Origin: Patescibacteria group bacterium
GTDB taxonomy: Bacteria; Patescibacteriota; UBA1384; CAJBMM01
DNA: 64,000 nt
NCBI GenBank assembly: GCA_041660565.1
Contig: JBAZWC010000001.1
Location: forward strand, 302,481-366,480
Direction of reading: 5' to 3'
A model generated the notes under the pieces. The model had not been told where the DNA came from. It worked only from the letters and a program-made list of their open reading frames with translations, and made no database searches. The translations under genes and the position numbers were made by a program. Below are positions 1 through 51,760 of the stretch, piece after piece (position 1 is the first letter of the stretch; each line of letters starts with the position of its first letter).

Positions 1-23
1 ATAATAATTAAATCGATTTTAGG

Positions 24-70
24 TCTTCAACAATTTCGGGGAAAGTTGGTTGGTCAAAGTGCTTTCGGTT
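24..70. repeat. 46-bp direct repeat copy A (4 mismatches to copy B); reads as a second copy of the 3' end of the hydrolase gene (encodes ...HFDQPTFPEIVEDLKSI* in one frame)
   Basis: tcttcaacaatttcggggaaagttggttggtcaaagtgctttcggtt vs 1074-1120 tcctcaacaatttcggggaaggtgggttggtcaaagtgctttcggtc. Confidence 0.7.
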
Positions 71-722
71 TCTTATGTGTCGCAGGGTAGTATTTCATTG
101 GGACACCATTGTATCGCTCGTTTAATCCCTCGTATATTAATTTCTTTAACGGCTCATAATCAGAATTGTTGTCAATTTGAGCTAAAGCTTTACGATACGC
201 ATTCTTATTTTCTTTTTCAATCTTAACCGATATCCCAACAAGCCCATATCTTTCAAGAATTAAGTTAGCAGCTAGCCTAGCAGTTCTCCCGTTTCCCTCA
301 AAAAATGGGTGGATGAATGTAATTTTATGATGAATCCAAGCGGCAACTGTGACTACTTTGTCAATGCATTCTACCAATTCATTACTAATCTCATCAAACC
401 CGATTATTAGTCCTTTGCATTCTGGACCAATGTTATTAATTTTACTAATAAGTTCTGCATCGGCTTGTTTCATAAGACCTGGTATTTTTGTTGGATGCGG
501 TGGTAGATGTTTTGAACCTGAGATTTTGACCTCTTCGGTTCTGAATTGCCCCGCAATTTCAGGCCAGATATTTTTCCATATCTCTTTATGAATAGCGTTT
601 ACGGTTTCAAGATTTATTTTCTTGTCAGACCTGGCATATTTTCGCACAAAACCGGCTGCATGAATTACTCCAGCAGCGGCTTTTCGCTCCAGATCCTCTT
701 CATCTTTTGGTCTGGATTGCAT
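54..722 (-). CDS. Fic/DOC (Fido) family protein, catalytic part; probably the downstream half of a frameshifted class II Fic gene
   Basis: Fic core motif HPFFEGNGRTARL (HPFxxGNGR); no ribosome-binding site upstream of its ATG; upstream ORF in -1 frame. Confidence 0.75.
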   Translation of the reverse strand: MQSRPKDEEDLERKAAAGVIHAAGFVRKYARSDKKINLETVNAIHKEIWKNIWPEIAGQFRTEEVKISGSKHLPPHPTKIPGLMKQADAELISKINNIGPECKGLIIGFDEISNELVECIDKVVTVAAWIHHKITFIHPFFEGNGRTARLAANLILERYGLVGISVKIEKENKNAYRKALAQIDNNSDYEPLKKLIYEGLNERYNGVPMKYYPATHKKPKAL

Positions 723-730
723 AAGTTGCC

Positions 731-925
731 TTATCTTACTTTAGTGGCAAGTTTATCGAATTCTTTTCGGTCAATTTTACTGCCTTCTAAAGTGCTAGAA
801 TAGTACGCATGTTCAATATCCCACGATTTCTCGAGGTCGTTTTTTTGAGACGAGGTCATCTTCTTGATGGTTTCTCGTGCAATTTTAATATTTGATATAA
901 GCAGTGATGCTTGTTTTGCGGTCAT
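731..925 (-). pseudogene. N-terminal fragment of a Fic gene carrying the inhibitory-helix motif SSTLEG ([ST]xxxE[GN]); separated from the Fic core ORF by a -1 frame change at an AAA tract
   Basis: Translation ...HAYYSSTLEGSKIDRKEFDKL resembles Fic N-terminal regions; strong RBS GGAGGA-ATG; both frames open only across 5 nt around ...actAAAgtaag... Confidence 0.45.
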
Positions 926-951
926 TTATCCTCCGATTAATGATCTGACTA

Positions 952-980
952 AGTATATTCCAATTTTACGCATTTTTCAA
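952..980 (-). promoter_or_regulatory. sigma70-like promoter for Fic module (-35 TTGAAA, 17-bp spacer, -10 TATACT)
   Basis: Read on minus strand upstream of RBS GGAGGA. Confidence 0.4.
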
Positions 981-1057
981 TGTATCTTTACATAATTATC
1001 TGTTTTAATTCTAATACAATGACGTAAATAAGCAACAAATATCCCTAACTGTCATGA

Positions 1058-1654
1058 CTATAATGCTCGAATATCCTCAACAATTTCGGGGAAGGTGGGT
1101 TGGTCAAAGTGCTTTCGGTCATCAAAAACCCTAAGCGTTGCTTGTAGCAACTCCTTAACGTAATCTTTGCAATTTGAAAATGGCACAACTTTGTCATCTT
1201 TACTTTGATAAATAAATATCGTTTTAACCTGTTTGGCCAGGCCGTCTAGCGATTTGATTATATTAAAATCGACTAGCGGGTGTTTGGTTGGCGTGTTGTA
1301 AGGCGCGGCGACCAAGTAAACCGCCTTAATTTTTCTTGAGCTAACATTTTCTGATAGATATTTAGCGGTGAATATTCCACCCAGTGAGTGCCCAATTATA
1401 ATTACGTTGTCATCTAGTAATGGAATAATTTTTTCGAACATAATTTTCCATTCGGCGTATCGCGCATTTCGAGCGTTGGGCATTTTTGGAATTAAAACTT
1501 GGTAGTTGCCACCTAGTGCATCTGCCAAATTGTCCTTCCAGCTTTTTGCCACCATTTTTTCAAGTGTGACCTCTCTGTTTTTTAGGTTTTGAATATATTC
1601 CTCGTGCGTTTCAAACGCATTCCCACCATTTATCACTAATATTTGCTGTGTCAT
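1058..1654 (-). CDS. alpha/beta serine hydrolase, RBBP9/YdeN-like (GHSLGG nucleophile elbow)
   Basis: IIGHSLGG GxSxG motif, ~190 aa size typical of the family; 3' end carries repeat copy B. Confidence 0.6.
   Translation of the reverse strand: MTQQILVINGGNAFETHEEYIQNLKNREVTLEKMVAKSWKDNLADALGGNYQVLIPKMPNARNARYAEWKIMFEKIIPLLDDNVIIIGHSLGGIFTAKYLSENVSSRKIKAVYLVAAPYNTPTKHPLVDFNIIKSLDGLAKQVKTIFIYQSKDDKVVPFSNCKDYVKELLQATLRVFDDRKHFDQPTFPEIVEDIRAL
1074..1120. repeat. 46-bp direct repeat copy B (inside hydrolase gene 3' end)
   Basis: See copy A. Confidence 0.7.
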
Positions 1655-1655
1655 T

Positions 1656-2180
1656 TTACTTCCTTTCAGATGGATTTATTAATCCCATTTGGATTTCGTC
1701 TTGATATTTTTGATCATAAAACACTTGTTCCTTAAGCACGCCTTCTACCTCAAACCCAAGCGATTTGTACAGATTGATCGCTGGGAGGTTGTAGCTGTAC
1801 ACCGCTAGGAATATTTTGTGTAGTTTGAGCTTTTCAAAACCGTATTTGATGATGTATTCGCAGGCTTTTCTGCCAATACCAAGCCCTCTGTATTCATCTT
1901 CACCAATCATGATGAATAGTTCGGCGTGTTTATCTACCGGATTTTGGCCGGTTAATCCAACTAGACCAACCGGAATGCCGTTGGCCTTGACGGTGAAGCG
2001 TTTGTCATATTTATTTTTTTGATAGCGGTTGAACCATCTTACGTTGTCTTTGTGGGTTACGCCGTTTCTAATTTGCCACCCTAAGTTGGCTTTGACTTTG
2101 GGATTTTGTATCCATTTGGTTCGTAGTTTGATGTCTTCTAGCTTTAGCGGGCTAAAAGTTATTTTTAATTGCTCTGGCAT
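1656..2180 (-). CDS. GNAT family N-acetyltransferase
   Basis: GNAT acetyl-CoA fold motifs (RGLGIGRKA...), 174 aa; 1-nt gap to downstream gene. Confidence 0.7.
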   Translation of the reverse strand: MPEQLKITFSPLKLEDIKLRTKWIQNPKVKANLGWQIRNGVTHKDNVRWFNRYQKNKYDKRFTVKANGIPVGLVGLTGQNPVDKHAELFIMIGEDEYRGLGIGRKACEYIIKYGFEKLKLHKIFLAVYSYNLPAINLYKSLGFEVEGVLKEQVFYDQKYQDEIQMGLINPSERK

Positions 2181-2182
2181 TT

Positions 2183-3016
2183 TTATTCCTTATCTTTAAT
2201 TTCTTTCTTCTTTGGCAAATAGTTCTCGTTAGTAATTACTTTTTTACCGGTTTCTTGTTCTAGCTCAATTCTAGCATTTTTGGCGATACCACCGCCTTTT
2301 ATACCAGCAATTTTATTTGGCTCAAATCCAGTGGCTTTATCTGTTTCGGCTATCTTACGGGTAGATAGCTCTGCCAGCGCGGTGAAAATTAGCTCGGCTT
2401 CAGACATATGATCACGCAGATTTTGTTTTGAAAGTCCTTTAATTTGTTTGTGTTTACCAACAGTTAGCCCGCTCCATTCTTGATGAATCACATTTGTTAG
2501 AATAGCAAATTCGCTTTGCTCTTCTATTCCATTATTTTTCCAGTAATCGGTTAGTTTATTTCTAGTTTCTTGCCCCATCATCCTTTGTTGAATCCATTTT
2601 TCACTCCGACCGAATCGTTGCCAGTTTTCTCTAGCGCGATTTATCGCTTTTTCCGGATCTTGAATTTCTTGGATTCTCTCGTAGCCAACTTTAGACAACC
2701 AGAGCTTAAACGGTTCTGCTTTAGGTGATGGGATCGACTGAATAATACGCAGAATAGCCTGGGTTGTGGCGCAATCCGTCAAGTATTTTTTTCCATCTGA
2801 CGATTCTAGTTTCAGTTGTCGACAAAGTGTCGACAACTCTACACCATCCTCTGAATTTACACGGATTTTCATTTTGAACCAATAGTCTCGCGCATTAACA
2901 CTGTTAGTTAGCGTCTCGACTACGTCAACCACTGAGAAATACCATACCGATTCCTTACTATCCCAGACTCGTCTAATTTTCTTGCCTTCGAATAACGCTA
3001 TTTCAAGATCGGTCAT
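2183..3016 (-). CDS. BRO-N domain / DinD-like (DNA-damage-inducible protein D family) protein
   Basis: N-terminal pattern ...IRRVWDSKESVWYFSVVDVVETL...ARDYW typical of BRO-N; DinD-like size (277 aa). Confidence 0.5.
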   Translation of the reverse strand: MTDLEIALFEGKKIRRVWDSKESVWYFSVVDVVETLTNSVNARDYWFKMKIRVNSEDGVELSTLCRQLKLESSDGKKYLTDCATTQAILRIIQSIPSPKAEPFKLWLSKVGYERIQEIQDPEKAINRARENWQRFGRSEKWIQQRMMGQETRNKLTDYWKNNGIEEQSEFAILTNVIHQEWSGLTVGKHKQIKGLSKQNLRDHMSEAELIFTALAELSTRKIAETDKATGFEPNKIAGIKGGGIAKNARIELEQETGKKVITNENYLPKKKEIKDKE

Positions 3017-3095
3017 TTTGTCTCCAGTCTATATATTATACACATCTATTATAATATCATTTGCGTAAAACTACCATACAAATACCGAATCGTCC

Positions 3096-3232
3096 GACAG
3101 ACGTCCCCGACATTATATTCGGGGATCCAGAAATAGACTTTTTCATAGACTGCCCCGAAGCGCGTTCGGGGTGGCTGGCGCCAGATTCTAGACGAAGTCT
3201 ACCCCGTGCTGTGCCACGGGGCGGGAATGACA
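3096..3232. repeat. cluster of truncated palindromic-repeat fragments (..gtccccgacattatattcggggatccag..; catagactg..; ..gcgggaatgaca) at left junction of GC-rich island
   Basis: Matches to repeat families at 8657, 9419, 21101, 41704. Confidence 0.55.
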
Positions 3233-3260
3233 CGAGGAGTGCCCGGGATAACATAAATTG

Positions 3261-3297
3261 ATAAAGAAAAGGCCCCGGGCACGGATGTGCTGGGGCC
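3261..3297 (-). terminator. rho-independent terminator (stem ggccccgggcac/gtgctggggcc, T-run on minus strand)
   Basis: GC hairpin followed by ttttctttat on coding strand, just downstream of stop at 3343. Confidence 0.6.
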
Positions 3298-3342
3298 TTC
3301 TTGGGGCGGGTAGGTTACGTGGACATCTCCGTCTACGACGGC

Positions 3343-3900
3343 CTAGTGCGTCTCCAACGCCGACGCGGGGTCGGTCTGGCCGCCCAGGTTGCCTGTGCCA
3401 GGCGCGCCTCCAGCGAAACCAAGCTGATCGGTTGCGACTGGCGGGTCGTCGGGCTCGGGTTCGCCGGTAGGGACCTCGTGGGTCAGACCGAAGATCTCCT
3501 CGAGCGTGTCGCCGGTTCCAGGCTCTTTGGGCTTGGGTTCGGGCTCGCCGGTCTCGGGCTCGGCCTTCTTGACGACCTCGTAGCCGAGTGTTCCCAGCGT
3601 GAAGGCCAGTGCGTCAATGCCCGACTTGATGCACTCGGGAACCACGCGCTCGGTGGTCCCATCCGCATTGACGATCAGACTGACGCTGCAGCCGGCGCCC
3701 TGCATCACCCACAGCCCGATCTGCTTGACCACTTCCTCGGCGGCCTTCGCGTTGCCGAAGTCGCCAACCGGATACTGCGTCTCGGTCACGTCGCCGCACG
3801 CCACCTCGGGAATAACGGCGTACACCACACCCCCTACTGCGACGGCCCGAACGACCTGGCGTACGTCAGCCACCAACCTTGGTGCGATCAAGTACGGCAT
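3343..3900 (-). CDS. hypothetical protein, GC-rich foreign-looking gene A (start MPYLIAPRL...), acidic Pro/Glu-rich C-terminus
   Basis: RBS GGGAGG-5nt-ATG, GC3-rich codons, own terminator; opposite-strand ORF 3301..3939 judged artifact. Confidence 0.45.
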   Translation of the reverse strand: MPYLIAPRLVADVRQVVRAVAVGGVVYAVIPEVACGDVTETQYPVGDFGNAKAAEEVVKQIGLWVMQGAGCSVSLIVNADGTTERVVPECIKSGIDALAFTLGTLGYEVVKKAEPETGEPEPKPKEPGTGDTLEEIFGLTHEVPTGEPEPDDPPVATDQLGFAGGAPGTGNLGGQTDPASALETH

Positions 3901-4041
3901 GTGCTTCCTCCCTGTGGAGTAACTCACAGATGTTTGTGAGCCAAGCCTGCTATTGGCTTGGGTTAGACAAGAAATACTTCTTTTCTAACCTAAACCTTAA
4001 GTAAAACTATTATTATATTGTTCAGTTTCTAAACTGGATGT

Positions 4042-4070
4042 ATTTTAGTAATTATTTATAGTTTTGTCAA
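4042..4070 (-). promoter_or_regulatory. sigma70-like promoter for gene A (TTGACA-17-TAAAAT) followed by ~150-nt leader with two small hairpins
   Basis: Read on minus strand in AT-rich spacer. Confidence 0.4.
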
Positions 4071-4129
4071 TACTTATTTATATTTTATGTGATGGGGTCG
4101 ATGGTTTTTGCATATTCCAAAGCACGGTA

Positions 4130-4166
4130 GTAATGAAAACGGCCGGGGCGCGGATGCGCCCCGACC
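4130..4166 (-). terminator. rho-independent terminator (ggccggggcgcggatgcgccccgacc + T-run), same family as 3271 and 4795
   Basis: Hairpin with conserved loop gGATGc, followed by gttttcattac on minus strand. Confidence 0.6.
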
Positions 4167-4187
4167 GATTGTCAGGCTTGGTGCCGG

Positions 4188-4700
4188 CTACATGCCGGCG
4201 GAGGCCTCAGCGTGTGAGTTGCCTCTGACGTTCACCTGCATCGTGAACGTCACAACGGTACCGCTGGTGTAGATATACACGTCAGCGGTACTTCCATCCA
4301 GGTACGAGTGTACCGCCGGGGTGGTGTACCCCGCGGCTAGCGCAACCCCAGCGCCCATGCATCCAGACGACGCGAATCCGTCATCGGCCTGGATGTTGCC
4401 CGAGCACCGACCACTTGCCGTGACATGGAGCGGCATTGGCGTGCCGGTGCCAATCCAGTACCACGTGGTGGTCGATCGGGCCGTGGCCACAGCAGACGAC
4501 AAGTTTGGGAAGTACCCCTCTGCGTAGAGGGTGTTCCCGCTGACCCAGACGTCAGCGAACTCCTTCGACTGGCTGGTGATGACCAGCCCGCTCGGGACGC
4601 ATGTCCAGAAACCGGTTGGCAGACCACCGCCAGACGCCTTAGCCGACGGGACAACAATCTGCCCCGTTGCCATCAGAAGTGCTACAACCAGTGGATACAT
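4188..4700 (-). CDS. small secreted hypothetical protein, GC-rich gene B (signal peptide MYPLVVALLMATGQIVVPSAKA; G/T/S/A-rich, 4 Cys)
   Basis: RBS GGAGG-6nt-ATG; N-terminal hydrophobic signal; own promoter and terminator. Confidence 0.5.
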   Translation of the reverse strand: MYPLVVALLMATGQIVVPSAKASGGGLPTGFWTCVPSGLVITSQSKEFADVWVSGNTLYAEGYFPNLSSAVATARSTTTWYWIGTGTPMPLHVTASGRCSGNIQADDGFASSGCMGAGVALAAGYTTPAVHSYLDGSTADVYIYTSGTVVTFTMQVNVRGNSHAEASAGM

Positions 4701-4748
4701 CTACGTCCTCCGTAGGGTTTTTGTACTGCATCCAGGCGTACACGGCAT

Positions 4749-4777
4749 ATATTAGCATAAGTTTTTAATTTTGTCAA
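4749..4777 (-). promoter_or_regulatory. sigma70-like promoter for gene B (TTGACA-17-TAATAT)
   Basis: Near-consensus hexamers in AT-rich spacer. Confidence 0.5.
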
Positions 4778-4784
4778 CATTTTT

Positions 4785-4821
4785 GCAACAAAAAGGGCCG
4801 AGGCGCAGATGCGCCCCGGCC
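4785..4821 (-). terminator. rho-independent terminator (gggccgaggcgcagatgcgccccggcc + T-run)
   Basis: Third member of the conserved terminator family. Confidence 0.6.
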
Positions 4822-4833
4822 ATTCGGGCTATG

Positions 4834-5613
4834 TTAGCTCGCGGTCAGAGTGAACAGGGATGTGCCCTCGGTGAAGTAGGCGGCGTCCGCAATATCCAAC
4901 ATCAGTAGCTGATCGCCACCACCCCTCACAACCACCACCCCCTCGTTCTGTCCTTTGGCTTGATTGGCTACAACGCGGGTTCCGGGCAGAATCACCTTGG
5001 CGTCTGCCGGAATAACGACGCCGGTGACGTAGCACCTGACAAACCAAAGGAATTCCAGTAGCCCACCGGGGATGACGCGTTTTGGGATGTGATTCCCATG
5101 CACTGCCACCGGAACGCCGAGGTTAACGGGCACGTCGTCCGTGGTGATGAAATGCGTGGACAGATCTGGCACAACTGAGGCGCAAGGCAACGATTCACCA
5201 GCTGTCGTAGCTGGCTCCCAGTTGATCCATGACTTGATGTTCGCCTGCGTCGGAGCAAGCCGCTGATCAGCCAGTGCCTGCTCGAACGGCTCGCACAGTC
5301 CAATACCCGAACCATTTTCAAGCATCCGCCGGACAAGTCTGGAATACGCGTCCGACCGTAGCAATAGGTCCACGTACACCCCCATCGACACCATCAATAC
5401 CACCGTACTGGGTAGTTTGACAGCACCATCATCGGATATGCTCAGCTGATTGGGATCCAGCTGATATTGCACGCCCCCGTTATTGCCAAGCACCCGCAGT
5501 AACGCGCTGATATCGAACTGGTGCGGGACCCGATGGGTGACGCATCGCACATCACAATCCGGCCGGCGCGTCACATAGCCGGCTGGCGTGTCGCTTAGCC
5601 TTATCGCTGGCAC
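4834..5613 (-). CDS. hypothetical protein, GC-rich gene C (GTG start, RBS GGAGGA)
   Basis: 259-aa ORF, GC-rich, own terminator; opposite-strand/alternative-frame ORFs judged artifacts. Confidence 0.4.
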   Translation of the reverse strand: MPAIRLSDTPAGYVTRRPDCDVRCVTHRVPHQFDISALLRVLGNNGGVQYQLDPNQLSISDDGAVKLPSTVVLMVSMGVYVDLLLRSDAYSRLVRRMLENGSGIGLCEPFEQALADQRLAPTQANIKSWINWEPATTAGESLPCASVVPDLSTHFITTDDVPVNLGVPVAVHGNHIPKRVIPGGLLEFLWFVRCYVTGVVIPADAKVILPGTRVVANQAKGQNEGVVVVRGGGDQLLMLDIADAAYFTEGTSLFTLTAS

Positions 5614-5935
5614 CTTGGTTCCTCCGTTGCGCTATCTAAGCGCGGTGTGAATGTACTGCCGCGTACATTAAATCACTTTTTGTCATAAAAGTCCACTAAA
5701 ATAAAGTAACGGTTCACAACAATATGAGTGTTCTCGTTCGAGGAGTTCGGAAAACGACGAGAACTATCTACAAATTAGTTCTCGCTACGCTCGAACAAGA
5801 AAGTCTGTTTGATAACTGTGCACTTTTATAAAATATAATCTGACAAGGGGTTGACAGAATTAAATCATATCTGTTATTATTAGTGCATCACGAGAGAGAA
5901 ACGAACTGGCAACTACGTGTTGCCTGTAACGCCTC

Positions 5936-6460
5936 TCATTTTTTGTATTCTAATTTCGCTTTTTCGTTCTCGATAAAGGTTTTGTACGATTGAAATTTCT
6001 TTAGTAATGATGATTCCGATTTGCGGTTTGGGATAACTACCCTAAGCAATTTATTTTGATCAATTAGATATTCGTACAGACATCTAAAATCACCATCACT
6101 AGAGACAATGACCGCTTTGTCATAATTTGGATATTGCAGCACCGCCGAGTGCAACACTAATTCGGCATCTATATTGCCTTTGGTTTTGCCTAATCTATCG
6201 GTGGTGGTGGGCTTGAACACTAATTCGTAGCCAAACGATCTAAGTTGGCTGTATAGTTGCTCGTTGTCTTCAATGTATCCAATGAATAGAAATGCTTTTG
6301 AGACCCGGAATTTATTAGAAAGATAAACGCGGAATTTGCGGAAATCCAGATGCCAACCGGTGTAAATCTTTCTACCGCGCTGGTTAATGACGTCTTTGCC
6401 CGTGCCTAAGTTTAGATTTTGACTGTCAATGAAGGCGTAGACGATTTGATGATTTTTCAT
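5936..6460 (-). CDS. NYN (LabA-like) domain protein; start taken at internal ATG overlapping obg stop (ATGA)
   Basis: VYAFIDSQNL...VIVSSDGDF motifs of NYN domain; translational coupling with obg. Confidence 0.6.
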   Translation of the reverse strand: MKNHQIVYAFIDSQNLNLGTGKDVINQRGRKIYTGWHLDFRKFRVYLSNKFRVSKAFLFIGYIEDNEQLYSQLRSFGYELVFKPTTTDRLGKTKGNIDAELVLHSAVLQYPNYDKAVIVSSDGDFRCLYEYLIDQNKLLRVVIPNRKSESSLLKKFQSYKTFIENEKAKLEYKK

Positions 6461-7503
6461 ATTTTGATTGCTTTGATTATTTGACGTTTGAGTTCGGTAA
6501 GACCTAAGCCGGTGGCGCAAGAGATAAACATAGCGTTTGGCATCTCTTTGGCCAGTTTCTTTTGATCTTTTTCCGGAATTGCATCAATTTTGTTGATGGC
6601 CACAATGCGTGGCTTTTTAAGTAAAGTGGAGTTGAATTGCTTGGCCTCGTTTTCGAGAGTTTTTAGGTTTGCTTTAACGTCTGCGTCTGTACCATCTAGA
6701 ATAAATAATAATAATTTTGTGCGGTTGATGTGACGCAGAAATTCAACTCCAAGACCCTTGCCGCTGGCCGCGCCTTCAATAATTCCGGGGATATCGGCGA
6801 TAACCAGGTGATTTCCATCAATATCTGCCACCCCAAGATTTGGCTCTAGGGTGGTAAACGGATAGTTGGCAATTTTTGGCCGGGCGTTGGTGGTTACCGA
6901 TAAAAAGGTAGATTTTCCAGCGTTTGGCAAGCCAACCAGACCAACATCGGCAATTAGTTGCAGCTCTAGGTCTAGATTAAATTGCTGGCCCAACATACCG
7001 GTTTTAGCCCAGTGCGGAGCTTGTTTTATACTGGTAGCAAAGTGCGCGTTACCCCAACCGCCACGGCCGCCTTTAGCGATGATTTCGGTTTGACCTTCGG
7101 TTAGGATTTCGTATTTTTTAGGAGCGTCATTCACGTGCAGGCGGGATTCTATGTCTTTTATATCTGGATTCCGGATCAAGTCCGGAATGACAGGTCGTGA
7201 TGCTTCGTCAACAACTGAGATGATTGTGCCGAGGGGAACATGAATAATGCAGTCTTCGCCGTTTTTACCGTGCATCTTTTTACCCATTCCGCCTTGACCG
7301 TTCTGTGCCTCGTACATCTTTTTTGATCTAAAATCGCTTAGCGTGTGTAGATCTCGTTTGCCCACAATAACCACGTCTCCCCCATTACCCCCATCACCCC
7401 CATCCGGGCCTCCGTTGGGAATATATTTCTCACGCCGAAAAGAGACGGCTCCATCGCCGCCATTACCAGATTGAACGCTAATTTCACATTGATCGATAAA
7501 CAT
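6457..7503 (-). CDS. obg: GTPase Obg (ObgE/CgtA), no C-terminal extension
   Basis: Gly-rich Obg fold N-terminus, GLPNAGKST G1 and DIPG motifs. Confidence 0.9.
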   Translation of the reverse strand: MFIDQCEISVQSGNGGDGAVSFRREKYIPNGGPDGGDGGNGGDVVIVGKRDLHTLSDFRSKKMYEAQNGQGGMGKKMHGKNGEDCIIHVPLGTIISVVDEASRPVIPDLIRNPDIKDIESRLHVNDAPKKYEILTEGQTEIIAKGGRGGWGNAHFATSIKQAPHWAKTGMLGQQFNLDLELQLIADVGLVGLPNAGKSTFLSVTTNARPKIANYPFTTLEPNLGVADIDGNHLVIADIPGIIEGAASGKGLGVEFLRHINRTKLLLFILDGTDADVKANLKTLENEAKQFNSTLLKKPRIVAINKIDAIPEKDQKKLAKEMPNAMFISCATGLGLTELKRQIIKAIKI

Positions 7504-8630
7504 TAGTAAATAAATCCTTTTAATGGAATTGAATTGATACTGACAGTGCGCGAGCTAATAATGCCAAAGCCTTTGTAGTTTTCCTCACTCACCGTTACTG
7601 TACTACCATTTACGCTTTCTACAATAGCCACGTGACCCCAACCACTTTCACCGGTAACCATAATTGCACCGGCTTTGGGGGTTCGGCCGGTGGCGTAACC
7701 ATCGGCTCTGGCACCCGATAACCACTGCCCCGCGTTGCCCCAGCGGCCAACTGCGCGTCGTGACGCTACGTAGGAGGTACAATATCCACCCGGATAACCA
7801 CGGTATGATTTATAATCACGTGTACCAACTCGGGTTACACTGGTGGTTTTCTTTTTGGTACTAGAGCTGGAATTACCGGATGCAACCTGTTTTTTGGCGT
7901 TGTTGATATCGTTTAGAATAGCAACCCAGTTGGTTGGCCCGCCATCGATGTCTTCAGCTGGGACCGTAATCACATCACCCGGAGATAATTTGGGTAAACC
8001 ATTTTTCTTTAACTTGGCTTCATCTATGCCGTTTGCGGCAAACAACGAAGCGGTGTGAAGGTTGTTTTTGCCCGCAATGCCAGACCAGGTATCGCCTTGC
8101 TGCACGGTGTAGTTAATAGCAAAACCACCGTATTGGCTTTGGTTGTCCGCACTCATGGCCAAAATGGACGCTTGGGCAATGTAATCTTGCTCTTGAATTC
8201 CCGCCAATGAGTGTGCTACCTCCGTTGGATCAACGTTTAGCGTTGGGGTGAACTGACCAACATCGGTAATAATAGCGGCGGTAACATCGGGCGAGGTAGG
8301 TAAGAATTGATACAAATTGGTTTCAGATGTGGCCGATGAATGGATAAAGTTAGATCCAATAAGCGCGGCGGCCATTAGTGATATGTTGGCTTTGCGATTA
8401 AAAACACGTAGCGAATCTAGGTTTATCTTAGATCGATTAATTTGAAACTTGGGCACACGCACAGACGCGATGCCGTAATGATACTTAATTTGATAGCGAA
8501 AACTGCTGACAGTACTCCGAATTCGTCGTCGCTTTGTGTCGGCAATGATCTGCAATTTAATGTAGATTTTTTTGAACCAAGCAGTGGCGTTTTTCATTCT
8601 GTGTACATTTATGTTAAAGGAAAAATGCAT
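7503..8630 (-). CDS. LysM + CHAP domain peptidoglycan hydrolase (true start probably downstream of annotated ATG)
   Basis: LysM (YTVQQGDTWSGIAG...) and C-terminal CHAP (GYCTSYVA...GHVAIVESV); 1-nt overlap with obg start. Confidence 0.7.
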   Translation of the reverse strand: MHFSFNINVHRMKNATAWFKKIYIKLQIIADTKRRRIRSTVSSFRYQIKYHYGIASVRVPKFQINRSKINLDSLRVFNRKANISLMAAALIGSNFIHSSATSETNLYQFLPTSPDVTAAIITDVGQFTPTLNVDPTEVAHSLAGIQEQDYIAQASILAMSADNQSQYGGFAINYTVQQGDTWSGIAGKNNLHTASLFAANGIDEAKLKKNGLPKLSPGDVITVPAEDIDGGPTNWVAILNDINNAKKQVASGNSSSSTKKKTTSVTRVGTRDYKSYRGYPGGYCTSYVASRRAVGRWGNAGQWLSGARADGYATGRTPKAGAIMVTGESGWGHVAIVESVNGSTVTVSEENYKGFGIISSRTVSINSIPLKGFIY

Positions 8631-8656
8631 CTATGTCAAACTGACAAACCGGTGTT

Positions 8657-8725
8657 TGTCATCCCCGCCCCGCTAAGCGGGGCATTGGGACGCTAAGCGT
8701 CCCGACGTTCTATTCGGGGATCCAG
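8657..8725. repeat. double-hairpin palindromic element, family GTCATCCCCGCCCCGCTAAGCGGGGC..GGGACGCTAAGCGTCCC..ATTCGGGGATCCAG
   Basis: Copies at 21101-21231 (with insertion), 41763-41824 (reverse), fragment at 3096-3130. Confidence 0.7.
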
Positions 8726-8739
8726 AAATGAAGGTGGAA

Positions 8740-9201
8740 CTAATTGCTCACAAAATCTGATAAATGGTCAGAAATAGTCAGCGTAATATGCGACAAAACA
8801 TGGTCATGATCAGTGGGGTTTGATTCAGACACCAAATACGCTAATTCGTATAGATCGGCTGCACTTATGATTAGCCACTTGTCATTGTTGGCCAAAAACA
8901 CTAGCAATGCCATCACAGCAATTCTTTTGTTACCGTTTTGGAACGGATGGTTTTTGATTAGTGAATAAAACAAAATCGATGCTTGATCCACTAGATTTGG
9001 ATACAACAGCTTACCACCGAATGATTGTGACGGTTGTCCGAGCGCGGATTCTAACAATGAAACGTCCCGAGTTGAATAATCGGGAATCGGTTGATTGAAA
9101 GTCATTAGATCTCTAGCGAGATTAAAACACAAGTATTCGAAATCTTGCGAGTTTATCCAAGCCGTTTCAGACGGCGGCGAGTTTTTTGAATGTTGATTCA
9201 T
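8740..9201 (-). CDS. doc: Doc (death-on-curing) family toxin, Fic/Doc superfamily
   Basis: Doc motif HPFQNGNKRIAVMA (HxFx[DN]GNKR), 153 aa. Confidence 0.75.
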   Translation of the reverse strand: MNQHSKNSPPSETAWINSQDFEYLCFNLARDLMTFNQPIPDYSTRDVSLLESALGQPSQSFGGKLLYPNLVDQASILFYSLIKNHPFQNGNKRIAVMALLVFLANNDKWLIISAADLYELAYLVSESNPTDHDHVLSHITLTISDHLSDFVSN

Positions 9202-9307
9202 ACTCTTTTAGACCACGCTTAACCGCTCGATCAATAGTTTTGGCCTTTTTAGGGTTAACTTTTTGATAAGCTTTGACGTCAATGCTTGAAAAAACAACTT
9301 TGTTCAT
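9167..9307 (-). CDS. candidate small upstream partner ORF of Doc (possible Phd-like antitoxin; 46 aa, MNKVVFSSIDVKAYQKVNPKKAKTIDRAVKRGLKEYESTFKKLAAV), overlapping doc start by 35 nt in another frame
   Basis: Manually translated; too short for ORF track; typical TA operon geometry; promoter immediately upstream. Confidence 0.35.
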   Translation of the reverse strand: MNKVVFSSIDVKAYQKVNPKKAKTIDRAVKRGLKEYESTFKKLAAV

Positions 9308-9316
9308 AATAGATAT

Positions 9317-9345
9317 ATTCTAATGCAATTAACGATCGGTGTCAA
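9317..9345 (-). promoter_or_regulatory. promoter of doc operon (TTGACA-17-TAGAAT) with -35 embedded in palindrome TGTCAaacTGACA (possible operator)
   Basis: Read on minus strand; start codon ~9 nt after -10. Confidence 0.45.
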
Positions 9346-9418
9346 ACTGACAGGGGATAGAAAATTGATGATGGAGGATAGATTGATCTCGTTCGAGCGA
9401 ATGCGAGAACTATCCGCT

Positions 9419-9490
9419 GTCATTCCGGGCTCGACCCGGAATCTATGTAATTCTTTTATAGACTGGATTCCCGCCTTCGCGGGAATGACA
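9419..9490. repeat. hairpin repeat pair: GTCATTCCGGGCTCGACCCGGAATC + TTTATAGACTGGATTCCCGCCTTCGCGGGAATGACA
   Basis: Same units at 16210-16235, 37295-37372, 41704-41730, 62234-62268. Confidence 0.7.
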
Positions 9491-9562
9491 TTGTAAAAAC
9501 CCCTAATCAGCTAATAACCCTCCGGGCGTAGCCCTACGGGCGGAGCCTAATAACCTAATAAC

Positions 9563-11308
9563 CTACAGCGTCCGTGTATGGACCTCGGTTACAAAGCTAA
9601 TTAGTTCGTCTTTGAGCTCAATTTTAAGATCGCCAGGTATCTGCACGCCCGCCTCTTGCCCACTTAACATCTCTTTAACTTCTTCTTTACCCCGGCGTAG
9701 TCCTAACACTTTACCTTCACCAATTTGCTCTTTTTTACGCATCACTCTAAATTGCTCACCCATTTTAAGAATGCCATCTTCTACCAATACCCCAATTACT
9801 TGAGATTTGGTGTTTCCCTTAAATACGGCGATTACTTTGCAATGCGCGTGATCTATCACCACTTCTTCTGGCGGTAGCAATTTGCTTAAAGCGGTTTTGG
9901 CATCTTCAACTAAATCGTAAATGACATCGTATGAAGAAATGTTAACTTTTTCTTTGTCGGCTAATTGACGCATTGAGGCCGAAACCGGCACTCTAAACGC
10001 CACCACAATCGATTTGGAAGCACGGCTTTTGGTGATGTCTGATTCAGAGACCGGCCCAACACCTAAGCCAACCAGATTTATTTTGACTTCACTGTTTCCT
10101 AGATCTTCTAGCACCGTTTTTACCGCTTCTAGCGAGCCCTGCACATCTGCTTTGACCAAAATTGGCAGCTCTTTGCTCTCCATTTGCTCTTCGGTAACAG
10201 ATTGATCTAACCCGGATTTGTTAATAGTGTGAACCCGGCCCAGGTTTATAGATGCCGCAAAACGCAATGCGTTGTCTTTAGCCTGTTTTTCGGTATCTAC
10301 CACTACCATTTGATCACCAAAGTTTGGCAACTGACGCAATCCAGAGATAACCACCGGCTGGCTGGGTAGCGCGTTATCTATTGCCTCGCCATTAAAATCT
10401 TGCAACGTTCTAATTTTGCCATAAGTTTTACCCACGGTAATGACATCGCTGTTCTTTAATTGCCCGTTTTGTACTAAAACGGTGGCCATTGGGCCTTTGC
10501 CAATCTGCATATGAGATTCAACCACCACCCCGCTGGCGCCACCTTCAAACGACGCTTGGTAGTGTTTCATTTCCGCCACCAGCAAAATCATTTCCAATAA
10601 TTGGTCAATGCCCATGTTGGTTTTAGCCGAAATTGGCACTACAACCGTTTGGCCACCCCAATCTTCTGGCACTAACTCTAACTCGGCTAATTGCTGTTTA
10701 ATGCGGTCTGGGTTTGCGCCAGGCTGATCCATTTTAGTGATGGCCACAATAATTGGCACATTGGCTAATTTGGCATGGTCTATTGCTTCGATAGTTTGCG
10801 GCTTAACGCCATCGTCTGCGGCAATTACCAAAACCACAATATCGGTAATATTGGCTCCGTGCTGGCGCATGGCGGTAAATGCGGCGTGTCCCGGTGTATC
10901 CAAAAAGGTAATTACTTTTTTGTTATGCGTTACTTGGTAGGCCGCAATATGCTGAGTAATGCCACCGGATTCGGAGGCAACTACGTTGGATTTTCTGATT
11001 GTGTCTAAAAGCGTGGTTTTGCCATGATCAACATGTCCCATAATGGTAACCACCGGAGGGCGTTCTTTTAGACTTTGCTCATCATTTATAACCGCTTCGG
11101 TGTTTAATTTTGATGCCAGTTCGGCGGTAAAACCAAATTCTTCAGAGATAATGGCCGCGGTCTCAAAATCCAAATTCTCGTTAATGGTGGCCATAATGCC
11201 GTTTTTCATTAGCATCCCAATGATTTTGGTTACCGGCACATCTAACTTATCGGCTAAATCTTTAACCGGAACAATATTGGGTAAAACTATTGGTTTTTGA
11301 TCAGACAT
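9563..11308 (-). CDS. infB: translation initiation factor IF-2 (short form, 581 aa)
   Basis: [13 protein letters not shown]-domain, full IF-2 C-terminal domains. Confidence 0.9.
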
Positions 11309-11350
11309 GGTCTCCTGAATTTAAAATTTAAAATTAAAAATTAAAAATTG

Positions 11351-41486: not shown

Positions 41487-41562
41487 TGGTAGCGGTGGGT
41501 AGAATTGAACTACCGACCTCGGCCTTATGAAGACCTTGCTCTAACCGCTGAGCTACACCGCC
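41487..41562 (-). tRNA. tRNA-Met/Ile2 (anticodon CAT), elongator type
   Basis: Manual fold: GGCGGTG acceptor, D, anticodon loop TTCATAA, TTCAATT T-loop, CCA encoded. Confidence 0.65.
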
Positions 41563-41576
41563 ATAAGTATTAAATT

Positions 41577-41651
41577 TGGTGGCGGGGGTAGGATTCGAAC
41601 CTACGACCTTGAGGTTATGAGCCTCACGAGCTGCCGCTGCTCCACCCCGCT
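41577..41651 (-). tRNA. tRNA-fMet initiator (anticodon CAT), A1·C72 unpaired, CCA encoded
   Basis: AGCGGGGTGGAGCAGC...CTCATAA...GGTTCGAATCC...CCCCGCCACCA, close to E. coli tRNAfMet. Confidence 0.65.
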
Positions 41652-49649: not shown

Positions 49650-49752
49650 GTTAGGGATTTTTAGGGAGTTTAGGGTTGTTAGGGTGGTTCCTTCCCTAAT
49701 TGGTCCCCCGCTCTCCCAATCACTCCAATCTCCCTAATTCCCCCAATTGCCC
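49650..49752 (+). repeat. TTAGGG/CCCTAA palindromic element E3
   Basis: ttagggatttttagggagtttagggttgttagggtggttccttccctaat...ccctaattcccccaa. Confidence 0.75.
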
Positions 49753-49773
49753 TATTTCTGTTATAATGGCACT

Positions 49774-50919: not shown

Positions 50920-50920
50920 G

Positions 50921-51018
50921 GTGTGTTAGGGAGTTTAGGGTTGTTAGGGTGGTTCCTTCCCTAATAGGTTCTACGCTCTCCCAACATCCCTAACGTCCCT
51001 AACTACCCTAACCGTCCT
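50921..51018 (+). repeat. TTAGGG/CCCTAA palindromic element E4 (45-bp core identical to E3)
   Basis: ttagggagtttagggttgttagggtggttccttccctaat shared with E3. Confidence 0.75.
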
Positions 51019-51088
51019 TTTCCTATTGACCACAACGACTACTTATTCCATACTATACTTATAGATCAAATAATGTGGGGCAGGATAA

Positions 51089-51714: not shown

Positions 51715-51760
51715 TTTTCCTGTTGTAAAAAAACTATTTTTCGTTTATAATATGGTTTAG

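What the first reader, a model, noticed from the sequence alone, without database searches (positions are those of the whole stretch)
24..1120. Fic toxin module bracketed by a 46-bp direct duplication of the hydrolase gene 3' end
A ~1-kb unit carrying a split Fic gene with its own promoter is flanked by two near-identical 46-bp copies (24-70 and 1074-1120). The copy at 1074 is the genuine 3' end of the hydrolase gene (…DQPTFPEIVEDIRAL*). The copy at 24 encodes the same peptide in its hydrolase-type frame (…DQPTFPEIVEDLKSI*) but is read in a different frame to give the Fic C-terminus and stop (…KPKAL*). This looks like an insertion footprint or recombination junction, with the Fic cassette landing in or next to the hydrolase 3' end. 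A tandem paralogous hydrolase gene with Fic between the copies is the alternative.
Basis: seen in the sequence. Interest (0 to 1): 0.6.

Follow-up and report, generated by a model that had tools for sequence, protein, structure and literature searches.

The report
Fic toxin cassette between duplicated gene-ends
A 1-kb Fic toxin-antitoxin gene pair in a tiny Patescibacteria genome sits between two copies of the last ~60 bases of a neighbouring hydrolase gene. This scar is like those left by restriction-modification genes that enter genomes without any mobility gene, and it recurs around related Fic cassettes in other genomes.

Summary
Window 24-69 and 1074-1119 are a 46-nt direct repeat (43/46 identical), found only twice in 64 kb and never in shuffles. 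Protein-level homology continues to stop codons in the same register (RKHFDQPTFPEIVEDLKSI* vs ...DIRAL*).

The "split Fic gene" is not a broken gene. It is a conserved two-gene module: a 64-aa FicA carrying the inhibitory S-x-x-x-E-G helix, and a 222-aa FicT carrying HPFFEGNGRTAR. All 11 related Patescibacteria loci examined have this form, and the module has its own promoter.

The repeat is a recombination scar, not a simple fresh target duplication. The 46-nt core differs at 3 sites, all synonymous. The last 18 nt differ at 11 sites, yet both encode family-typical hydrolase C-termini. The truncated copy therefore comes from a second hydrolase allele that was once functional.

Five of the 11 ficAT loci have 36-110-nt direct repeats of unrelated local sequence bracketing the cassette. 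The background rate in related genomes is about 2%. In three loci the repeat is a duplicated gene end.

No mobility gene, terminal inverted repeat or attC-like site was found. The closest known phenomenon is "insertion with long target duplication" of restriction-modification systems.

No empty-site allele exists in the databases, and the left flank of the window is unseen, so the mechanism remains inferred.

The parts
1058..1654 (-). Intact serine hydrolase gene (198 aa, PF06821 Ser_hydrolase / alpha-beta hydrolase). It is the last 'host' gene before the cassette. NCBI protein MFA6082078.1.
   Evidence: Pfam hit E 7e-11. More than 400 Patescibacteria homologues all end R.HFNQ..FPE[IL]V.DI[KRQ].L. 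Accession.
1074..1119 (-). Direct-repeat copy 1: a 46-nt core inside the intact hydrolase 3' end, encoding (D)RKHFDQPTFPEIVED.
1058..1073 (-). Tail of the intact hydrolase (..D-IRAL-stop). It is homologous to the tail of the remnant but strongly diverged from it (10/16 nt differ).
   Evidence: The tail fits the family pattern DI[KRQ]xL.
926..1057 (-). Leader between the hydrolase stop and ficA, 27% GC. It contains the cassette's own promoter. The part from about -80 to the ATG is conserved among ficAT cassettes of other genomes.
952..980 (-). Sigma-70-like promoter TTGAAA-17 nt-TATACT (10 of 12 consensus positions), followed by the ribosome-binding site GGAGGA at 929-934.
   Evidence: Best promoter-like site in window 1-3200. 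The same TTGAAA...TATAAT block aligns upstream of ficA in L103, L106, L107, L111 and L113.
731..925 (-). ficA: a 64-aa antitoxin-like protein carrying the Fic inhibitory helix motif (S)STLEG, which matches (S/T)xxxE(G/N).
   Evidence: A 63-64-aa ORF sits in the same position in all 11 related loci. WD[VI]EHAYYSSxLEGS is nearly invariant. It aligns with the FICD inhibitory helix HHIYHTVAIEGN.
54..722 (-). ficT: a 222-aa Fic-domain AMP-transferase toxin with active-site motif HPFFEGNGRTAR. Its last 4 codons and stop (KPKAL*) lie inside repeat copy 2. NCBI protein MFA6082076.1.
   Evidence: PF02661 E 5e-19. 289 homologues, 213-224 aa, are conserved up to ...KYYP and then have a variable tail of 2-8 aa. 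PADLOC PDC-S04 9e-23 and SoFic 8e-19. Accession.
24..69 (-). Direct-repeat copy 2: a 46-nt core, 43/46 identical to copy 1. The three differences are synonymous in the hydrolase frame.
8..67 (-). Hydrolase 3' remnant of 19 codons plus stop (RKHFDQPTFPEIVEDLKSI*). It has no upstream hydrolase body, because in-frame stops appear immediately 5' of nt 69.
1656..3016 (-). Context genes in the same orientation and tightly packed with the hydrolase: a GNAT acetyltransferase (1656-2180) and a Bro-N protein (2183-3016; PADLOC candidate defence PDC-S13). Together they form a low-GC accessory block of about 39% GC, against 44% for the genome.

Best explanation
What it is. The unit is an intact, self-promoted, two-gene Fic toxin-antitoxin cassette (ficA-ficT). 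FicT is an AMP-transferase with a canonical HPFx[D/E]GNGRxxR site. FicA supplies in trans the inhibitory glutamate helix (SxxxEG). This makes an addiction or abortive-infection type module.

Where it sits. The cassette lies immediately downstream of a serine-hydrolase gene in a 516-kb Patescibacteria (CPR) chromosome. It is bracketed by two copies of the hydrolase's last ~62 nt. The upstream copy completes a working hydrolase gene. The downstream copy is a 19-codon orphan whose first 16 nt have been co-opted as the last codons and stop of ficT.

How it most likely arose (inferred). The cassette has no mobility gene and was installed by host recombination rather than by a transposase. The incoming DNA carried ficAT attached to a hydrolase 3' end from another lineage. 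Crossover occurred inside the most conserved 46-nt block of the gene. This left one hydrolase end from each parent on either side of the cassette, and the hydrolase was never inactivated.

This is the toxin-antitoxin counterpart of the 'insertion with long target duplication' described for restriction-modification systems. The 46-nt repeats (22 nt perfectly identical) could also let the cassette loop out again and leave an intact hydrolase gene.

Shown versus inferred. Shown: the anatomy, the conservation of the module, the mosaic and synonymous-biased divergence of the two copies, and the recurrence of such brackets around ficAT in other genomes. Inferred: the direction and mechanism of the event, toxicity, and reversibility.
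For: (1) The repeat is real and unique, and an independent assembly supports it.

(2) The module is intact and conserved. The Fic domain and motif are present. FicA is 64 aa with an invariant SxxxEG in 11 of 11 loci. The pair is colinear with FICD across the ORF boundary. The promoter is conserved.

(3) FicT is conserved to ...KYYP. Only its variable tail runs into the repeat, so the junction lies at the very 3' end of the cassette.

(4) The two copies come from two functional alleles. The core differs at 3/46 sites and the tail plus stop at 11/18 (Fisher p = 1e-5). The core differences are 4 synonymous to 0 non-synonymous. The tails IRAL and LKSI are all-conservative with stops in register (joint chance 9e-4). 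Both fit the family C-terminal pattern.

(5) The pattern recurs. Five of 11 independent ficAT loci have significant direct repeats of 36-110 nt, of unrelated sequence, bracketing the cassette within 800 nt. Shuffle maxima were at most 17.5 against observed scores of 23.5-55. Among control positions in the window plus 21 CPR loci, 25 of 1246 reached the same score. In L113 and L111 the repeat is the 5' end of the downstream gene, again with synonymous-biased differences (14/9 and 4/1). The L113 fragment's variant residues occur in other natural alleles.

(6) No transposase, integrase, terminal inverted repeat or attC-like element lies in the unit or in the 14 kb to its right.

(7) ficAT sits in different neighbourhoods in different genomes: next to rpoB, parB, heliorhodopsin and a PD-(D/E)XK gene. 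A different toxin-antitoxin pair occupies the same slot in a relative. GC3 of ficT and ficA (0.31 and 0.35) is below that of housekeeping genes (0.44-0.47).

(8) Published precedent exists. Restriction-modification units lacking mobility genes have been found flanked by 45-47-bp and longer target duplications that overlap gene 3' ends, mostly in naturally competent species (PMC2853133; PMC3874152).
Against: No empty-site allele or close relative exists. The nearest hydrolase is 64% identical and the nearest FicT 69% identical. Insertion is therefore inferred from anatomy, not seen.

Only 45 nt to the left of the remnant are known. An integrase or a third repeat copy further left cannot be excluded.

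Six of the 11 ficAT loci show no tight repeat. Some repeats in other loci (L106, L107) belong to multi-copy intergenic repeat families rather than insertion scars.

The synonymous-bias tests rest on few sites: 13 differences in the window and 41 in total.

A hydrolase-ficAT linkage also exists in L103, so part of the arrangement could be old and vertically inherited.

Toxicity, neutralisation and promoter activity are untested.
Confidence: 0.62

Rival explanations
1. This is a plain 'insertion with long target duplication' in situ. A single event duplicated about 46 nt of this genome's own hydrolase 3' end around incoming ficAT DNA. All differences between the copies arose afterwards, and no second allele was involved.
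For: The form is the same as published restriction-modification cases, which include two 46-bp duplications overlapping gene 3' ends (PMC2853133). The core is 93% identical with a 22-nt perfect block. Both copies share the lineage-specific HFDQPT signature, which is not seen in 120 homologues.
Against: The 16 nt after the core would then be insert DNA. Yet they encode a family-typical hydrolase tail (IRAL) with a stop in register with the remnant's tail (chance about 9e-4). If instead the tail was part of the duplication, 11/18 differences next to 3/46 cannot be neutral decay (p = 1e-5). The core differences are all synonymous. Expected if one copy decays freely is about 0.2-0.34, so p is about 0.002-0.01.
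Confidence: 0.14
2. The repeats are att sites of a site-specific integrative element that targets the 3' end of the hydrolase gene and brings a replacement gene end, as ICEs and islands do at tRNA or fda-type targets. On this reading the 1-kb ficAT unit is a non-autonomous, CIME-like module or the edge of a larger island, and the integrase lies left of the window.
For: The topology is exactly attL/attR at a gene 3' end: an identical core, an element-supplied functional tail, and the original tail displaced to the far side. The left flank is unseen beyond 45 nt. In one relative (L121) ficAT lies 450 nt from a phage-type integrase. The whole left 6 kb of the window is an accessory or defence island.
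Against: No integrase lies in the unit or in the 14 kb to the right. No inverted-repeat core or arm-type repeats were found. In other genomes the brackets around ficAT have unrelated sequences, lie at 5' gene ends or in spacers, and enclose no recombinase. That pattern is not what one integrase family with one att site would give. The 45 nt left of the remnant look like the end of a convergent gene rather than element DNA, but this is weak evidence.
Confidence: 0.15
3. The remnant is a relic of a tandem paralogue. The genome once had two adjacent hydrolase genes, and ficAT replaced the first 179 codons of the second.
For: The fragment evolved as coding sequence before it was truncated, given the synonymous and conservative differences.
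Against: None of 22 related hydrolase loci (+-10 kb) has a second copy or fragment. The same explanation would require tandem paralogues of three unrelated genes in three streamlined genomes (window, L111, L113), each precisely replaced by ficAT. A 93%-identical core next to a 39%-identical tail is not expected of old paralogues.
Confidence: 0.06
4. The structure is an assembly or chimera artefact that joins strain variants at a shared 46-mer.
For: The source is a metagenome-assembled genome. The repeat sits 23 nt from the window edge. The Logan contig ends 45 nt further left.
Against: Two assemblers give identical sequence across both copies and the whole cassette. The longest exact block shared by the copies is 22 nt, shorter than usual assembly k-mers. 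The cassette is a complete, conserved operon with intact junction reading frames.
Confidence: 0.03

Closest known systems
'Insertion with long target duplication' of restriction-modification gene units (Nobusato et al. 2000, Gene 259:99; Furuta, Abe & Kobayashi 2010, PMC2853133; review PMC3874152)
   Same: A small selfish 'addiction' gene unit with no transposase or integrase is flanked by long direct repeats (over 30 bp) of unique local sequence. The published cases include two 46-bp repeats in H. influenzae that overlap the 3' end of a gene (43-45/46 identity). The repeat lengths are variable, there are no conserved element ends, and gene fusions form at junctions.
   Different: The cargo here is a Fic toxin-antitoxin pair, not a restriction-modification system. 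The DNA-breakage explanation proposed for restriction-modification units therefore does not obviously apply. The host is a CPR/Patescibacteria genome. No empty-site genome is available. The two repeat copies are a mosaic of two hydrolase alleles (functional tail supplied on both sides) rather than near-identical duplicates.
FicTA / class I Fic toxin-antitoxin modules (VbhT-VbhA, E. coli FicT-FicA; PMC5033356, PMC5675462, PMC8401265)
   Same: A small upstream ORF carries the (S/T)xxxE(G/N) inhibitory helix. The downstream Fic protein has a canonical HxFx(D/E)GNGRxxR site. The pair forms a two-gene operon with its own promoter.
   Different: By sequence the family is closest to FICD-type (class II) Fic proteins (E 1e-15 to 1e-17). 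It is not close to VbhT or EcFicT, whose NCBIfam equivalogs score far below cut-off. It looks like a class II protein whose N-terminal inhibitory region is encoded separately. The target is unknown.
Integrative elements and cis-mobilisable elements (CIMEs) at the 3' ends of protein or tRNA genes
   Same: Direct repeats are formed by the 3' end of the target gene. The element supplies a replacement gene end, so the target stays functional. Non-autonomous units without an integrase can be bounded by such repeats.
   Different: No integrase or att-type inverted repeats were detected. The brackets in sister loci have different sequences and lie at different kinds of site.
SoFic and PDC-S04 single-gene Fic defence candidates (PADLOC)
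   Same: FicT matches these models over its full length (E 8e-19 and 9e-23). It lies in an island next to another defence candidate (Bro-N / PDC-S13, E 2e-121).
   Different: Those models are single proteins with a built-in inhibitory helix. Here the helix is a separate gene. Defence activity is untested.

Membership tests
Fic toxin-antitoxin module (class I architecture, FicT/FicA type) | Fic domain with the catalytic motif HxFx(D/E)GNGRxxR | tested here: met
   PF02661 E 4.9e-19. HPFFEGNGRTAR is present, and H, F, GNGR and R are invariant in 22 family members.
Fic toxin-antitoxin module (class I architecture, FicT/FicA type) | Inhibitory motif (S/T)xxxE(G/N) carried on a separate small protein encoded just upstream | tested here: met
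   The 64-aa ORF 731-925 contains SSTLEG. The motif and ORF length are conserved in 11 of 11 loci. It aligns with the FICD inhibitory helix.
Fic toxin-antitoxin module (class I architecture, FicT/FicA type) | Sequence membership in the characterised FicT/VbhT equivalog families | tested here: not met
   NCBIfam VbhT scores 15 bits against a cut-off of 800. PRK10347 Fic scores 18 against 181. The best solved relatives are FICD proteins. The module has the same architecture but belongs to a different subfamily.
Fic toxin-antitoxin module (class I architecture, FicT/FicA type) | The toxin arrests growth and the small protein neutralises it | not testable with these tools
   This needs expression experiments.
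Insertion with long target duplication (criteria of Furuta et al. 2010) | Unit under 20 kb flanked by direct repeats over 30 bp | tested here: met
   The core is 46 nt (43/46). Total homology is about 62 nt, and the period is 1050 nt.
Insertion with long target duplication (criteria of Furuta et al. 2010) | No mobility-related gene in or next to the unit | tested here: inconclusive
   None lies in the unit or in the 14 kb to the right. The left side is unseen beyond 45 nt.
Insertion with long target duplication (criteria of Furuta et al. 2010) | The repeat sequence is otherwise unique in the genome | tested here: inconclusive
   Only two copies occur in the 64-kb window. The other 452 kb of the contig are not available.
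Insertion with long target duplication (criteria of Furuta et al. 2010) | An empty-site genome carries a single copy of the repeat | not testable with these tools
   No close relative was found. The hydrolase has no homologue above 64% identity and FicT none above 69%. The exact-pattern scans of metagenome and viral contigs were empty.
Site-specific integrative element (att sites at a gene 3' end) | Direct repeats made of the target gene's 3' end, with the gene restored by the element | tested here: met
Site-specific integrative element (att sites at a gene 3' end) | A tyrosine or serine recombinase encoded by the element | tested here: inconclusive
   It is absent from window 1-14149. The left flank is unknown.
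Integron gene cassette | An attC imperfect inverted repeat at the 3' end of the cassette and an integron integrase nearby | tested here: not met
   No inverted repeat lies at either cassette end. No integrase is nearby. No Rfam or structured element was found in window 1-3300.
IS or transposon | Terminal inverted repeats, a transposase, and a short target duplication of fixed length | tested here: not met
   No terminal inverted repeats and no transposase. Bracket lengths are 36-110 nt and vary between loci, and there are no shared end motifs.

The most novel reading that the evidence does not exclude
ficAT, and other small cassettes such as MazE/ParE and single hydrolase genes, may form a class of recombinase-less 'address-label' cassettes in Patescibacteria. 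On this reading each cassette travels with a short copy of the end of a conserved neighbouring gene. Host homologous recombination (probably after natural DNA uptake) integrates it at the orthologous gene end in a new genome. The result is a long direct repeat that keeps the target gene intact and allows later precise loop-out. This would supply the missing mechanism for 'insertion with long target duplication', and would show that it does not depend on restriction-enzyme DNA breakage.
Probability: 0.25. Interest if true: 0.7.

Novelty: new variant of a known kind. Interest (0 to 1): 0.5.

Why it matters
How addiction modules that encode no transposase or integrase move between genomes has been open since long target duplications were first seen around restriction-modification genes in 2000. 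The favoured idea was that the restriction enzyme's own DNA breaks drive the insertion.

Here the same scar surrounds a Fic toxin-antitoxin pair, which has no nuclease, in ultra-small CPR genomes. It recurs in about half of the sister loci. The two repeat copies derive from different functional alleles. Together these points favour a general, host-recombination-based route in which the cassette carries a piece of its neighbour as a homology handle.

The locus also shows how a streamlined genome can take up a selfish cassette inside a gene end without losing the gene. It gives a concrete, testable system: the 46-nt repeats, a known read set (SRR18595301) and known accessions.

Tried and rejected
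(1) Empty-site search. Related-locus scan of GTDB genomes with the hydrolase. Homologue searches with the hydrolase and FicT. Exact-pattern scans of JGI metagenome contigs and IMG/VR with the repeat and with the left flank. No close relative and no second occurrence was found.

(3) Broad scans for FicT relatives in metagenome and viral contigs. These were swamped by distant Fic proteins because the motif patterns were generic. Only L023 was usable.

(4) Tandem-paralogue idea. No second hydrolase copy occurs in 22 loci.

(5) Shared end motifs, inverted repeats or attC-like hairpins at cassette ends. None were found.

(6) Structured RNA in window 1-3300. No Rfam match at E of 1 or less.

(7) Extension of DNA homology 5' of the core. 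The tblastn extension (TLR match at window 70-94) is not significant, and in-frame stops follow immediately.

(8) Protein-level search for decayed gene-end fragments in the six ficAT loci without repeats. Nothing convincing was found.

(9) Empty site for the sister locus L113 via its PD-(D/E)XK neighbour. The one related contig had no DNA on file. Its gene table showed a different toxin-antitoxin pair in the same slot.

(10) FicA against solved structures, Pfam and NCBIfam on its own. No hit, because it is too short. Its identity rests on the motif, its conservation and the concatenated alignment to FICD.
Full report
1. OBSERVATION

Window 24-69 and 1074-1119 form a 46-nt direct repeat with 43/46 identity and a period of 1050 nt. 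With up to 3 mismatches the sequence occurs only at these two sites in 64 kb. It occurs in none of 100 dinucleotide-preserving shuffles.

All the genes involved are on the minus strand:
- Bro-N protein, 3016-2183
- GNAT acetyltransferase, 2180-1656
- PF06821 serine hydrolase, 1654-1058
- a 64-aa ORF, 925-731
- a 222-aa Fic protein, 722-54

In gene orientation, the copy at 1119-1074 encodes residues 180-194 of the hydrolase. The copy at 69-24 lies at the very end of the Fic gene. Homology has a sharp 5' edge at nt 69/1119.

On the 3' side, DNA identity drops, with 10 of the next 16 nt differing. Both copies nevertheless continue in the same frame for four sense codons to stop codons in exact register. 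The stops are at 1058-1060 (TAG) and 8-10 (TAA). The peptides are RKHFDQPTFPEIVEDIRAL* and RKHFDQPTFPEIVEDLKSI*.

A Logan contig assembled independently from run SRR18595301 (L001, 2882 bp) is 100% identical to window 1-2837. It spans both copies and adds 45 nt to the left. The repeat ends are 69 and 1119, not 70 and 1120.

2. THE ORGANISM AND THE NEIGHBOURHOOD

The proteins are annotated at NCBI as coming from a Patescibacteria-group MAG, on a contig of 516,109 bp. FicT is MFA6082076.1 and the hydrolase is MFA6082078.1.

From about 6.4 kb onwards the window carries housekeeping genes: obg, infB, gyrA and tRNAs.

The first 6 kb form an accessory island:
- The ficAT-hydrolase-GNAT-BroN block has 36-40% GC, against 44.3 +- 3.6% for the rest of the window.
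- It is followed by a 55-58% GC stretch whose ORFs have no Pfam hit.
- The Bro-N protein matches the PADLOC candidate defence model PDC-S13 over its full length (E 1.8e-121).
- FicT matches PDC-S04 (9e-23) and SoFic (8e-19).

3. THE FIC UNIT IS AN INTACT TWO-GENE MODULE, NOT A BROKEN GENE

FicT has a Fic domain (E 5e-19) with the canonical active-site motif HPFFEGNGRTAR. It has 289 detectable relatives, almost all from Patescibacteria and 213-224 aa long.

In every one of the 11 distinct related loci whose DNA I could read, a 63-64-aa ORF lies 2-20 nt upstream of the Fic gene. These small proteins are 48-75% identical to the window's. They share a nearly invariant block, WD[VI]EHAYYSSxLEGSxxDRKEF. 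This block contains the Fic inhibitory motif (S/T)xxxE(G/N).

The small ORF and FicT, joined end to end, align colinearly with single-chain human FICD across the ORF boundary. EHAYYSSTLEGS falls on the FICD inhibitory helix HHIYHTVAIEGN.

The architecture is therefore that of class I FicTA modules, with the inhibitory helix supplied by a separate antitoxin (PMC5033356, PMC8401265). The sequence, however, is closest to FICD-type class II proteins. It does not reach the NCBIfam cut-offs for VbhT or E. coli Fic.

The best promoter-like site in window 1-3200 is TTGAAA-17-TATACT at 980-952, 26 nt upstream of ficA. The same block aligns upstream of ficA in five other genomes.

From established knowledge of Fic proteins, the likely mode of action is as follows. 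FicT transfers AMP to a target protein; in characterised FicT toxins the targets are GyrB and ParE. The FicA glutamate blocks productive ATP binding. Toxicity, target and any anti-phage role are untested here.

4. WHERE THE CASSETTE ENDS

FicT relatives are conserved up to ...GVxMKYYP and then carry a variable tail of 2-8 residues. The window protein reads ...KYYPATHKK|PKAL*, where the bar marks the start of the repeat.

The whole conserved FicT is therefore cassette DNA. Only the last four codons and the stop are supplied by the hydrolase remnant.

On the other side, the sequence shared among cassettes starts about 80 nt upstream of ficA. About 58 nt of non-conserved leader lie between this point and the hydrolase stop.

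5. THE TWO COPIES COME FROM TWO FUNCTIONAL HYDROLASE ALLELES

More than 100 hydrolase homologues end with the pattern R.HFNQ..FPE[IL]V.DI[KRQ].L, followed by 0-6 residues. Both ...EDIRAL* and ...EDLKSI* fit this pattern.

I asked how likely it is that arbitrary window DNA placed after the core would give four sense codons this similar to LKSI (BLOSUM62 sum of at least 7) and then a stop. The chance is about 9e-4. The tail of the intact gene is therefore a genuine hydrolase tail, not the chance beginning of an insert.

Divergence is strongly mosaic:
- first 22 nt of the core: 0 differences
- remaining 24 nt of the core: 3 differences
- tail plus stop: 11 of 18 differ
- core versus tail: Fisher p = 1e-5

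In the 15 core codons analysed, all four differences are synonymous in the hydrolase frame: three inside the 46-nt repeat and one at the third base of the final Asp codon. All four tail replacements are conservative (I/L, R/K, A/S, L/I).

Suppose the remnant had simply decayed after an in-situ duplication. Then about 20-34% of differences should look synonymous, and divergence should be even along the segment. Neither expectation holds.

The remnant therefore descends from a second hydrolase gene that was under purifying selection. The near-identical core marks either the place where two alleles recombined or a later conversion tract.

Both copies share HFDQPT, which none of 120 homologues has. 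The two alleles were therefore related lineages, not distant donors.

6. THE TANDEM-PARALOGUE ALTERNATIVE

None of 21 related hydrolase loci from GTDB genomes, nor L103, has a second hydrolase copy or fragment within +-10 kb. The comparison genomes are distant, however, at no more than 62% protein identity.

7. THE SAME KIND OF BRACKET RECURS AROUND ficAT ELSEWHERE

For the 11 distinct loci I aligned the 800 nt upstream of ficA with the region from -60 to +800 around the ficT stop. Five loci give direct-repeat scores of 23.5-55. Shuffle means were 9-12, shuffle maxima at most 17.5, and inverted-orientation controls at most 13. The five are:
- the window: 46 nt, 43 identical
- L111: 36 nt, 31 identical
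- L113: 92 nt, 72 identical
- L115: 37 nt, 33 identical, plus 18 more nt after a 31-nt indel
- L106: 110 alignment columns, 93 identical, enclosing ficAT plus one more gene

Two further loci have wider brackets:
- L103: a 39-nt repeat around hydrolase-orf127-ficAT
- L107: 95-nt and 48-nt repeats

The L106 and L107 repeats partly belong to multi-copy intergenic repeat families. I do not count them as clean scars.

The same scan at 1246 control positions, in the window and 21 CPR loci, reached a score of 23.5 or more at 25 positions (2%). These clustered at about ten sites. Five of 11 against a 2% background is far beyond chance (binomial about 1e-6, threshold chosen post hoc).

The repeat sequences are unrelated between genomes, and no shared motif marks the cassette ends.

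In L113 the repeat is the start codon plus the first 31 codons of the downstream PD-(D/E)XK gene. A truncated copy sits 231 nt upstream of ficA. In L111 the repeat is codons 8-19 of the downstream gene. These two are mirror images of the window, where the 3' end of the upstream gene is duplicated.

In both loci the differences are again synonymous-biased: 14 synonymous to 9 non-synonymous in L113, and 4 to 1 in L111. Pooled with the window the count is 26 to 15 (p = 2e-7 against 0.25). The variant residues of the L113 fragment (NIFDPKS) occur in other natural alleles of that gene.

Protein-level searches found no decayed fragments in the six loci without repeats.

Three more observations fit the picture of small cassettes bounded by long repeats:
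- In a relative of L113, a DUF433/DUF5615 toxin-antitoxin pair occupies the same slot in front of the PD-(D/E)XK gene.
- In L012, a MazE/ParE-like pair plus a HAD hydrolase sit in a 61-nt bracket just after the hydrolase homologue.
- In L004, the hydrolase homologue itself sits in a 58-nt bracket (55/58) that begins at the last base of tRNA-Ala.

8. WHAT IT IS NOT

- There is no transposase, integrase or other mobility gene in the unit or in window 1-14149.
- There are no terminal inverted repeats or attC-like palindromes at the cassette ends.
- There is no Rfam family in window 1-3300.
- The repeat is not a multi-copy element within the window.

9. MOST LIKELY EXPLANATION, AND ITS LIMITS

The anatomy matches the 'insertion with long target duplication' that Kobayashi and colleagues described for restriction-modification units. 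In that phenomenon, small addiction-type units without mobility genes are flanked by long, variable, locally unique direct repeats. Two of their cases are 46-bp repeats in H. influenzae that overlap gene 3' ends. Most cases occur in naturally competent species, and fusions sometimes form at the junctions (PMC2853133; PMC3874152). Its mechanism has never been established.

The window adds two things. First, the cargo is a Fic toxin-antitoxin pair, which has no nuclease. Second, the two repeat copies carry the signature of two different functional alleles.

The reading I favour (confidence about 0.6 for the general statement, lower for the details) is this. ficAT arrived on DNA that already carried a hydrolase 3' end next to it; a hydrolase-ficAT linkage also exists in L103. 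Host homologous recombination crossed over inside the best-conserved block of the resident hydrolase. The result is intact gene - donor tail - ficAT - core - resident tail.

Once such a repeat-bracketed arrangement exists, ordinary transformation and recombination can pass it to any lineage that shares the gene. Recombination between the repeats (22 nt of perfect identity) could remove it again and leave an intact hydrolase.

Steps shown: the anatomy, the conservation, the mosaic pattern, the synonymous bias and the recurrence.

Steps inferred: the direction of transfer, a circular or linear intermediate, dependence on RecA, and reversibility.

I cannot exclude a site-specific element whose integrase lies left of the window (0.15). 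The topology is identical to attL/attR at a gene 3' end, and only 45 nt of left flank are known. A purely in-situ duplication (0.14), a decayed tandem paralogue (0.06) and an assembly artefact (0.03) fit the data less well, for the reasons given under the rival explanations.

10. VERDICT

- The Fic 'split' is a conserved toxin-antitoxin architecture, not a broken gene.
- The duplicated segment reaches the stop codon.
- The copies represent two alleles, not one duplication.

The finding is a new variant of a known but mechanistically unexplained phenomenon. It occurs in a phylum and with a cargo class where it has not, to my knowledge, been described.

Interest is moderate (0.5). The single locus is not surprising to a mobile-element specialist. 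However, its recurrence around ficAT in CPR genomes and the allele-junction signature make the old 'long target duplication' question more testable.

Noticed in passing
window 3050-5900: A block of about 2.9 kb has 55-58% GC in a genome that averages 44% and next to a 39% GC block. Its three minus-strand ORFs (3343-3927, 4188-4700, 4834-5613) have no Pfam hit. It looks like separately acquired foreign DNA.
   Followed up: partly
window 2183-3016 (-): The Bro-N domain protein (277 aa) matches the PADLOC candidate anti-phage model PDC-S13 over its full length (E 1.8e-121). Together with ficAT (PDC-S04 / SoFic-like), this makes the left end of the window look like a small defence island.
   Followed up: partly
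window 8740-9201 (-): A second Fic/Doc-family toxin gene (153 aa) lies among housekeeping genes (CHAP/LysM, infB). It scores above the cut-off for TIGR01550 death-on-curing. I did not look for an antitoxin partner.
   Followed up: no
window 49652-49762, 50917-51027, 51618-51719, 52851-52950: A family of intergenic repeats of about 100-110 nt is built from TTAGGG-type arms followed by CCCTAA-type arms (long hairpin potential). The repeats bracket single genes at 49.7-52.9 kb.
   Followed up: no
window 41487-41651 (-): Two adjacent tRNA-Met (CAT) genes lie 14 nt apart.
   Followed up: no
L004 9654-10688 (CP174360.1, Patescibacteria UBA2103): The hydrolase homologue itself is a single-gene unit of about 900 bp bracketed by a 58-nt direct repeat (55/58). 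The repeat contains a terminator-like hairpin and begins at the last base of tRNA-Ala. No integrase is nearby.
   Followed up: partly
L012 10633-12018 (MHIY01000025.1, Colwellbacteria): Directly after the hydrolase homologue, a MazE-like/ParE-like toxin-antitoxin pair plus a HAD hydrolase are bracketed by a 61-nt direct repeat (59/61).
   Followed up: partly
contig of P0243 (ENA ERZ1426827; gene table only): In a relative whose PD-(D/E)XK gene is 81% identical to that of L113, a DUF433/DUF5615 (PIN-like) toxin-antitoxin pair occupies the slot immediately upstream of that gene. This is where ficAT sits in L113, so the site may be a toxin-antitoxin hot spot with cassette substitution.
   Followed up: no
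L103/L104/L105 3578-5806: In another Patescibacteria genome ficAT is also linked to a Ser_hydrolase homologue, with a 127-aa ORF in between. The whole 2.2-kb block is bracketed by a 39-nt direct repeat (34/39). Homologues of the 127-aa ORF also lie near ficAT in L106, L111 and L112.
   Followed up: partly
L001 ends (window -45 and 2837): The Logan contig breaks 45 nt left of the window and inside the Bro-N gene. This could reflect strain variation or repeats at those points. The 45 extra nt contain a possible end of a convergent gene (...LTEQSSPE*).
   Followed up: no
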